From: Tortispora ganteri
Taxonomy: Eukaryota
Length of the DNA stretch: 64,000 nucleotides
NCBI GenBank assembly: GCA_003707115.1
Contig: PPNB01000005.1
Span: 1-64,000 of the forward strand
Direction of reading: 5' to 3'
Shown here: in pieces, positions 43,295 to 43,705 of the stretch
Layout of the letters: every line of letters starts with the position of its first letter
Numbering within the stretch: position 1 is the stretch's first letter
The notes under the pieces: generated by a model
Told to the model about the DNA's origin: nothing
Database searches by the model: none
Seen by the model: only the letters and a program-made list of their open reading frames with translations
Program-made: the position numbers and the translations under genes

Positions 43295-43705
43295 ATGGCC
43301 CGCACTAAACAAACAGCCCGCAAGTCCACTGGTGGCAAAGCCCCTCGCAAGCAACTCGCCTCTAAGGCCGCTCGCAAATCTGCACCCACAACTGGAGGTG
43401 TTAAGAAGCCTCATCGTTATAAACCCGGTACTGTCGCTCTCCGTGAAATCCGTCGCTACCAAAAGTCCACTGAGCTACTTATTCGCAAGCTTCCTTTCCA
43501 AAGACTTGTTCGTGAGATTGCTCAGGACCGCAAAGTAGAACTCCGCTTCCAATCTTCTGCCATCGGTGCCCTTCAGGAATCCGTTGAGGCTTACCTTGTT
43601 TCCCTCTTCGAGGATACCAATCTTTGCGCCATTCATGCCAAGCGTGTTACCATCCAGGCCAAAGATATGCAACTCGCCCGTCGCCTTCGCGGTGAACGTG
43701 CTTAA
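43295..43705 (+). CDS. HHT: Histone H3 (atypical: T31, R78, V80, E81, A121)
   Basis: [20 protein letters not shown]...[10 protein letters not shown], 135 aa after Met. Confidence 0.99.

What the first reader, a model, noticed from the sequence alone, without database searches (positions are those of the whole stretch)
43529..43540. Histone H3 F78R/T80V/D81E flanking an intact K79
Seen: GAC CGC AAA GTA GAA CTC = D77 R78 K79 V80 E81 L82. Phe to Arg needs two base changes. The tail is canonical apart from T31, and L1 has no insertion, so this is not CenH3. Known: F78 is highly conserved in canonical H3 and lies in the loop that Dot1 remodels. Inference: K79 methylation or its reading is altered.
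Basis: partly seen in the sequence, partly recalled or inferred. Interest (0 to 1): 0.7.

Follow-up and report, generated by a model that had tools for sequence, protein, structure and literature searches.

The report
Yeast histone surface altered, Dot1 missing
This yeast's only ordinary histone H3 gene has changed a normally fixed patch around lysine 79, its partner H4 has changed next to it, and the enzyme that marks that lysine (Dot1) was not found in the assembly, so it may show how this chromatin surface evolves once the mark is gone.

Summary
In detail: 43529-43540 encodes R78 K79 V80 E81 in an intact H3, divergent from H4. It is the only canonical H3 found in the assembly. R78 occurred in 0 of 242 loop strings from fetched H3s. 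An identical H3 sits in another public assembly, and a sister organism shows no listed change in these codons, so an error is unlikely.

Two additions. (1) Dot1 was not found: 0 of 7 queries matched, while 8 of 9 control families did, some at 22-25 bits. Lipomyces, Sugiyamaella and Yarrowia keep Dot1, which points to lineage-specific loss. (2) The single H4 carries V70I, T71F and E74D; V70 and E74 touch F78/K79 in the yeast nucleosome.

Best reading: Dot1 was lost, K79 is unmethylated, and the H3-L1/H4-alpha2 patch drifted or repacked. Against: fission-yeast H3 keeps F78 without Dot1 (absence recalled); T80V keeps K79me3 in budding yeast; the H4 clustering is weak (p 0.04-0.29); the assembly has 1044 contigs. 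No proteomics was available. New variant of a known kind.

The parts
43295..43705 (+). Histone H3 gene, 136 aa, intronless; the only canonical H3 found in the assembly
43529..43540 (+). Codons for R78 K79 V80 E81 in loop L1 (canonical F78 K79 T/S80 D81)
42675..42986 (-). Histone H4 gene, 103 aa, intronless, single copy, divergent from H3; H4 K20 and the R17-H18-R19 patch intact
42771..42776 (-). H4 codons I70 and F71 (V70, T71 in 4 of 4 PDB H4 alignments shown). V70 is 4.5 A from the F78 side chain and 4.2 A from K79. T71 is second shell (6.8 A from F78) and packs on H2B T99/L103 (3.7-3.8 A)
42762..42764 (-). H4 codon D74 (E74 in 4 of 4 alignments shown). E74 is 3.8 A from K79 and 4.5 A from the F78 carbonyl
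43089..43100 (+). Promoter motif copy 1 in the H4-H3 intergenic region; resemblance to an Rfx1 half-site is recalled
   Evidence: 2 matches in window, 0.06 expected, but the pattern was taken from these sites; one 1-mismatch copy between H2A and H2B, reached by 14 of 200 shuffles
43194..43205 (+). Promoter motif copy 2

Best explanation
This is the bulk H3 of an early-branching budding yeast (Tortispora-like, inferred) whose lineage lost Dot1, the only known H3K79 methyltransferase. K79 is therefore most likely unmethylated. With Dot1 gone, and the nucleosome-binding BAH domain of Orc1 apparently degenerate, the constraint on the L1 loop relaxed. F78 became Arg, with milder T80V and D81E. The facing turn of H4 helix 2 changed too (V70I, T71F, E74D), plausibly refilling the space left by the Phe ring and keeping an acid near K79/R78. 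Checkpoint recruitment probably runs through Set9/H4K20me and a Crb2-type Tudor-BRCT protein, as in fission yeast. SHOWN: the substitutions; single copy; sharing of the H3 with another assembly; no Dot1 match; the contact geometry in the yeast nucleosome; presence of Set9 and Crb2-like genes. INFERRED: true gene loss, absence of K79me, order of events, compensation, checkpoint rewiring.
For: One canonical H3 and one H4 in G000. Dot1: 0 of 7 queries matched: PF08123, and at E<=10 two metagenome fungal Dot1s, Lipomyces, Sugiyamaella, an unnamed basal one (92) and Yarrowia. Real yeast Dot1s score 254-314 bits on PF08123, and the same tool reports 22-25-bit hits here. Eight of 9 other families rang (not 44), and the Dot1-neighbour APT protein was found. 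None of 21 class-I methyltransferase loci hits a Dot1 profile (0 hits in 4088 ORF pieces). No remnant lies in 10 kb around APT1 or ATG16, which flank Dot1 in other fungi. Dot1 is present in Lipomyces, Sugiyamaella and Yarrowia. H4 V70 and E74 contact F78/K79. Organism B's listed changes leave H4 I70/F71/D74 intact. Set9/SUV4-20 (E 1e-34), Crb2-like Tudor (E 0.007 to S. pombe Crb2; Pfam below cut-off) and Bre1 are present.
Against: The assembly has 1044 contigs and no completeness figure, and Dot1 could not be searched in sister genomes, so a gap remains possible. S. pombe H3 keeps F78-K79-T80-D81 although it lacks Dot1 (recalled), as do plant H3s among the hits, so Dot1 loss is not sufficient. 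K79 itself is kept. The H4 clustering is weak: P=0.044 over the core but 0.29 within helix 2, using neighbours I picked. T71 does not touch F78 directly (6.8 A). Yarrowia has both Set9 (PMC2474616) and Dot1, so Set9 retention is no sign of Dot1 loss. The Orc1 BAH result rests on negative profile searches. No protein, RNA or methylation data exist here.
Confidence: 0.68

Rival explanations
1. Dot1 is present but lies in an assembly gap or is too diverged to detect; it co-evolved with the R78-K79-V80-E81 loop and still methylates K79.
For: 1044 contigs, completeness unknown. K79, the H4 basic patch and Bre1 are intact. T80V is tolerated by yeast Dot1 (PMC10840469). Trypanosome DOT1s work on very different loops (PMC10951340).
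Against: 0 of 7 Dot1 queries matched, with sensitive controls (against 45, 69, 70, 94). No exact motif-I DNA match; 9 one-mismatch hits against 8 for the control pattern. The assembly (9.63 Mb) is as large as the contig sets of runs X3, X7 and X8 (9.26-9.64 Mb).
Confidence: 0.12
2. Adaptive remodelling: R78 with H4 I70/F71/D74 was selected as a new interface (changed nucleosome stability, a new reader, or a new modification site on R78 or K79), and Dot1 was lost afterwards because its substrate no longer worked.
For: F to R needs two base changes through Leu or Cys in a single-copy histone gene. Three of 7 differences from Nadsonia H3 fall within four residues. Other Dot1-less lineages did not change the loop (plus recall). 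The facing H4 residues changed too.
Against: No reader or enzyme was identified. The clustering statistic is weak. The order of events was not tested: no outgroup H3 from the nearest genera was obtained, and run X9 does not cover the loop.
Confidence: 0.17
3. Artefact or minor variant: a sequencing error, a specialised H3 beside an unseen canonical copy, or gene conversion from CenH3.
For: CenH3 also reads E-L-R-F-Q after its loop. The assembly is fragmented.
Against: Identical protein in another assembly. No listed change in organism B. No second H3 or H4. The gene sits in the standard divergent H3-H4 pair, and single-copy histone genes are reported for this lineage (bioRxiv 2023.08.28.551515, passages). 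The H3/CenH3 DNA alignment shows no conversion tract.
Confidence: 0.03

Closest known systems
Canonical fungal H3 (S. cerevisiae HHT1/2 type; nearest listed hit Nadsonia fulvescens H3, 95% identical)
   Same: 136 aa, canonical tail, no L1 insertion, K4/K9/K27/K36/K56/K79 all present, divergent H3-H4 pair.
   Different: F78R, T80V, D81E; partner H4 has V70I, T71F, E74D; single copy; no Dot1 found.
Schizosaccharomyces pombe chromatin (no Dot1: recalled; Set9/H4K20me used in the DNA-damage response: PMC2474616 passages)
   Same: Dot1 not found; Set9 and a Crb2-like Tudor-BRCT protein present.
   Different: S. pombe keeps F78-K79-T80-D81 and H4 V70-T71-E74 (alignments; assigning those chains to S. 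pombe is recalled). No Clr4/SUV39-like protein was seen among the 10 SET hits here (read by eye).
Trypanosoma brucei H3 and H3.V with DOT1A/DOT1B (PMC10951340, passages)
   Same: Residues flanking the K79-equivalent lysine differ from F-K-T-D; Glu follows closely.
   Different: Trypanosome histones are diverged throughout and keep two DOT1 enzymes. Here the rest of H3 is canonical and the enzyme is missing.
CenH3/Cse4
   Same: Altered L1 sequence; E-L-R-F-Q after the loop.
   Different: No L1 insertion, canonical tail, and a separate CenH3-like gene exists.

Membership tests
Canonical (bulk) fungal histone H3 | 135-residue H3 with conserved N-tail and histone fold, above 90% identical to fungal H3 | tested here: met
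   93-95% to S. pombe, Nadsonia, Trichomonascus and K. lactis H3
Canonical (bulk) fungal histone H3 | Divergent H3-H4 gene pair and no other canonical copy | tested here: met
Canonical (bulk) fungal histone H3 | L1 loop F78-K79-T/S80-D81 | tested here: not met
   R78 K79 V80 E81; R78 in 0 of 242 other loop strings
Canonical (bulk) fungal histone H3 | Expressed and incorporated genome-wide | not testable with these tools
   no protein data; see Tried and rejected
CenH3/CENP-A | Longer L1 loop and divergent N-tail | tested here: not met
   no gap against yeast H3; the true CenH3-like gene has a 6-residue insertion
Dot1-H3K79 methylation system | Dot1 gene (PF08123, motifs X and I) | tested here: not met
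   0 of 7 queries; local profile negative; a gap in the assembly cannot be excluded
Dot1-H3K79 methylation system | Substrate K79, H4 R17-R19 patch, Bre1 for H2B ubiquitylation | tested here: met
Dot1-H3K79 methylation system | Methylated K79 in vivo | not testable with these tools
   needs mass spectrometry
Set9-H4K20me-Crb2 checkpoint route | Set9/SUV4-20 orthologue and H4 K20 | tested here: met
Set9-H4K20me-Crb2 checkpoint route | Crb2-type tandem Tudor able to read H4K20me2 | tested here: inconclusive
   Tudor_3 20.9 bits, below the 25.8 cut-off; E 0.007 to S. pombe Crb2; binding cage not assessed
Sir3/Orc1 BAH reader of the LRS surface | BAH domain on Orc1 or a Sir3 paralogue | tested here: inconclusive
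   Only Rsc1/2-like and Snt2-like BAH found. Orc1 has no Pfam BAH hit at E<=10 (75) and no PDB hit. ESM features are weakly BAH-like, 0.80-0.81, a lead only. The single-sequence fold failed.

The most novel reading that the evidence does not exclude
A budding-yeast lineage rebuilt the H3-L1/H4-alpha2 interface of every nucleosome as a co-adapted set (H3 R78/V80/E81 with H4 I70/F71/D74), together with loss of Dot1 and decay of the Orc1 BAH reader. The new Arg-Lys surface then either locks K79 out of the flipped-up state Dot1 needs, or serves a different writer or reader, for example arginine methylation of R78 or a SET enzyme acting on K79.
Probability: 0.17. Interest if true: 0.8.

Novelty: new variant of a known kind. 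Interest (0 to 1): 0.55.

Why it matters
Why F78-K79-T80-D81 is nearly invariant, even in lineages without Dot1, is not well explained. Here an otherwise ordinary, sole H3 has dropped F78 for Arg, the facing H4 residues have changed, and Dot1 appears lost while relatives on both sides keep it. That gives a natural H3/H4 pair that can be shuffled into S. cerevisiae to separate three roles of this surface: core packing, Dot1 substrate, and Sir3/Orc1-BAH or Rad9 docking. It also adds a candidate independent loss of H3K79 methylation inside Saccharomycotina. No paper joining these points turned up in the library searches; subscription journals are mostly not covered.

Tried and rejected
Gene conversion from CenH3: no tract. 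Second canonical H3 or H4: none. Whole-protein homologue search was swamped by tandem or fused H3 models. The loop-region search scored 8000 candidates (7648 passed, best 120 listed); the best single-copy hits reached 93% and none had R78; 90% clustering can hide members. Dot1 motif in viral contigs: 0. PF08605 (Rad9) gave no hit and no control rang, but a Crb2/Rad9-like gene was found by PF18115, so that blank was not counted as a loss. No positive-control eukaryote genome could be run through the same genome search, so sensitivity rests on in-genome controls. The 116 of 116 control hits are not independent: those loci were picked by the motif and 12 went into the profile. The 150 best Dot1 representatives carry no names; 10 were looked up and 5 clusters gave species names, none from this lineage, which does not show absence. 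No RNA holder listed. Run X9 (organism E) does not cover the H3 loop, and its H4 differences are mostly unlisted. The Orc1 N-terminus fold failed at pLDDT 31. No H3-H4 complex model was obtained. Papers with nothing on this point in the passages seen: PMC7145719, PMC11449361, PMC13076208, PMC13289920. PMC7308085 lists F78A in a yeast library but the lethality colouring is not visible. The histone-evolution paper's supplement (searched whole, part 1 of 138 read) gave an H2A alignment and no match to the H3 or H4 motifs. bioRxiv supplements could not be seen and may hold H3/H4 alignments for this lineage.

Full report
Observation. The window holds an intronless H3 at 43295-43705(+) and an H4 at 42986-42675(-), head to head. 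The given coordinates are exactly codons 78-81: CGC AAA GTA GAA = R78 K79 V80 E81. Yeast H3 chains in the PDB align without a gap and read F-K-T-D there. The rest of the protein is ordinary fungal H3, 93-95% identical to S. pombe, Nadsonia, Trichomonascus and K. lactis H3. Three of its 7 differences from Nadsonia H3 are these three. Among 242 loop strings from 197 of 203 fetched H3-like proteins, position 78 is F in 238 and never R; V80 never occurs; E81 occurs 4 times. The sample is biased toward canonical top hits.

It is real and it is the bulk H3. The assembly (9.63 Mb, 1044 contigs) yields two H3-like genes: this one and a CenH3-like gene with an L1 insertion at C934:213.4 kb. There is one H4, one H2A-H2B pair and one H2A.Z. 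The exact H3 protein is in NCBI/UniRef on a 2.61-Mb contig, whereas the H4 and 10 of 10 other window proteins tested are not in the collection, so another genome encodes the same H3. Contigs of organisms B, C and D span the whole locus. For B, 39 of 41 differences are listed: none touches H3 codons 78-81, and those at H4 74-75 are silent. For C and D, 29 of 49 are listed, which leaves the codons open.

Lineage (inference). Single-copy, intronless histone genes and an Rfx1-type promoter motif are reported for Tortispora/Trigonopsis (bioRxiv 2023.08.28.551515, passages). A 12-base motif occurs twice in the H3-H4 promoter; its likeness to an Rfx1 site is recalled. The variable residues of this genome's H2A match, by eye, the Tortispora row of the H2A alignment in the published version's supplement (PMC10917516; PDF text partly scrambled). 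I therefore call it Tortispora-like.

Dot1 is not found. The Pfam model PF08123 gave no candidate. Six Dot1 proteins gave no match at E<=10: two from fungal metagenome contigs, Lipomyces oligophaga, Sugiyamaella, an unnamed basal sequence and Yarrowia. Yeast Dot1s score 254 and 314 bits on the model, while the same search reports 22-25-bit matches in this genome. Eight of 9 other families were found (not 44, whose gene was found by another model). The APT protein that neighbours Dot1 in two yeast loci was also found. None of 21 class-I methyltransferase loci matches a Dot1 profile. There is no remnant in 10 kb around APT1 or ATG16; an Atg16-like motif lies beside Dot1 in 28 of 80 metagenome loci. 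Dot1 is named in Lipomyces, Sugiyamaella and Yarrowia, which branch before and after this lineage (and recall), so absence would be a loss. Caveats: completeness is unknown, no eukaryote positive-control genome could be run, and sister genomes could not be searched.

The partner H4 changed beside the loop. It reads I70-F71-Y72-T73-D74 where 4 of 4 PDB H4 alignments shown read V-T-Y-T-E. I measured distances on yeast nucleosome coordinates from supplement 2 of PMC2587916 (9 H4 and 3 H2B residues that I chose). The F78 side chain lies 3.6 A from H4 R67, 4.5 from V70, 4.7 from I66 and 4.9 from E63. K79 lies 3.8 A from E74 and 4.2 from V70. T71 is second shell: 6.8 A from F78, 4.5 from R67 and 3.7-3.8 from H2B T99/L103. 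A crude extension of a Phe ring along one rotamer reaches 4.8 A from where F78 sat but clashes with R67 (2.5 A), so repacking would be needed. Two of the five measured neighbours changed; P=0.044 over the H4 core and 0.29 within helix 2. Compensation is plausible, not shown.

What the substitutions would do to Dot1. In the active Dot1L complex the K79 loop flips about 90 degrees, H4 R19 holds the backbone of Q76, K79 and T80, and Dot1L F131 touches the T80 side chain; F78 is not named in the text searched (bioRxiv 501098, passages and section 8). T80V keeps K79me3 and HM silencing in S. cerevisiae (PMC10840469, passages). Trypanosome DOT1s methylate in Q-K-E and L-K-D contexts (PMC10951340, passage).

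Other users of this surface. Only Rsc1/2-like and Snt2-like BAH domains were found. Orc1 has no recognisable BAH by Pfam or PDB search and only a weak ESM lead, so the Sir3/Orc1-type reader of the LRS surface (PMC2587916, passages) may be degenerate. Set9/SUV4-20 is present, as is a weakly scoring Crb2-like Tudor-BRCT protein. In fission yeast Set9-made H4K20me serves the damage response (PMC2474616, passages), so a Dot1-free checkpoint route is available. Yarrowia has both Set9 and Dot1, so this is permissive only.

Mechanism and odds. Most likely (0.68): Dot1 lost, K79 unmethylated, constraint relaxed, loop and facing H4 turn drifted or repacked. Rivals: selected remodelling with Dot1 lost afterwards (0.17); Dot1 hidden in a gap or diverged (0.12); artefact or minor variant (0.03). 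The main fact against simple relaxation is that S. pombe H3 keeps F-K-T-D without Dot1 (recalled), so a second release, such as BAH decay or the H4 change, is probably needed.

Novelty. Dot1 loss is known elsewhere (recalled), and diverged K79 loops are known in trypanosomes. A sole, otherwise canonical fungal H3 with R78, matched H4 changes and apparent Dot1 loss was not found in ten library searches ('Dot1' with 'Tortispora' or 'Trigonopsi' gave 0 papers). Subscription journals and bioRxiv supplements were not visible. Verdict: new variant of a known kind, interest 0.55.

Noticed in passing
L175:1161-3785(-) (G000:C446): Orc1 (874 aa) has AAA+ and winged-helix domains but no detectable BAH by Pfam or PDB search; only a weak ESM lead.
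   Followed up: partly
L018:1057-2619(+) (G000:C657): Set9/SUV4-20 H4K20 methyltransferase orthologue, which most budding yeasts lack.
   Followed up: yes
L016:1420-2418(-) (G000:C335): A second Set2/ASH1-like SET protein besides Set2 (read by eye); no Clr4/SUV39-like protein among the 10 SET hits.
   Followed up: no
L176:1659-3896(-) (G000:C879): Crb2/Rad9-like Tudor-BRCT protein, closer by score to fission-yeast Crb2 models than to the Rad9 model, all weak.
   Followed up: partly
L002:1486-2196(-) (G000:C934:213.4 kb): CenH3-like open frame has no in-frame ATG before the histone fold; an intron or non-ATG start is likely.
   Followed up: no
window 42807-42818 and 42792-42794(-): Further H4 helix-2 differences V56, R59 and G64, away from the K79 loop (K59 is 9 A and A56 15 A from F78).
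   Followed up: partly
window 43089-43100 and 43194-43205; L005:938-949: Repeated 12-base promoter motif in the H3-H4 spacer, with one near copy in the H2A-H2B spacer.
   Followed up: partly
metagenome loci L033-L112: An Atg16-like motif lies within 1.5 kb of Dot1 in 28 of 80 loci, and APT lies next to Dot1 in L068, L076 and L037: conserved neighbourhoods not kept here.
   Followed up: partly
window 57290-60550(+): Snt2-like BAH/PHD chromatin protein about 14 kb from the histone pair; name recalled.
   Followed up: no
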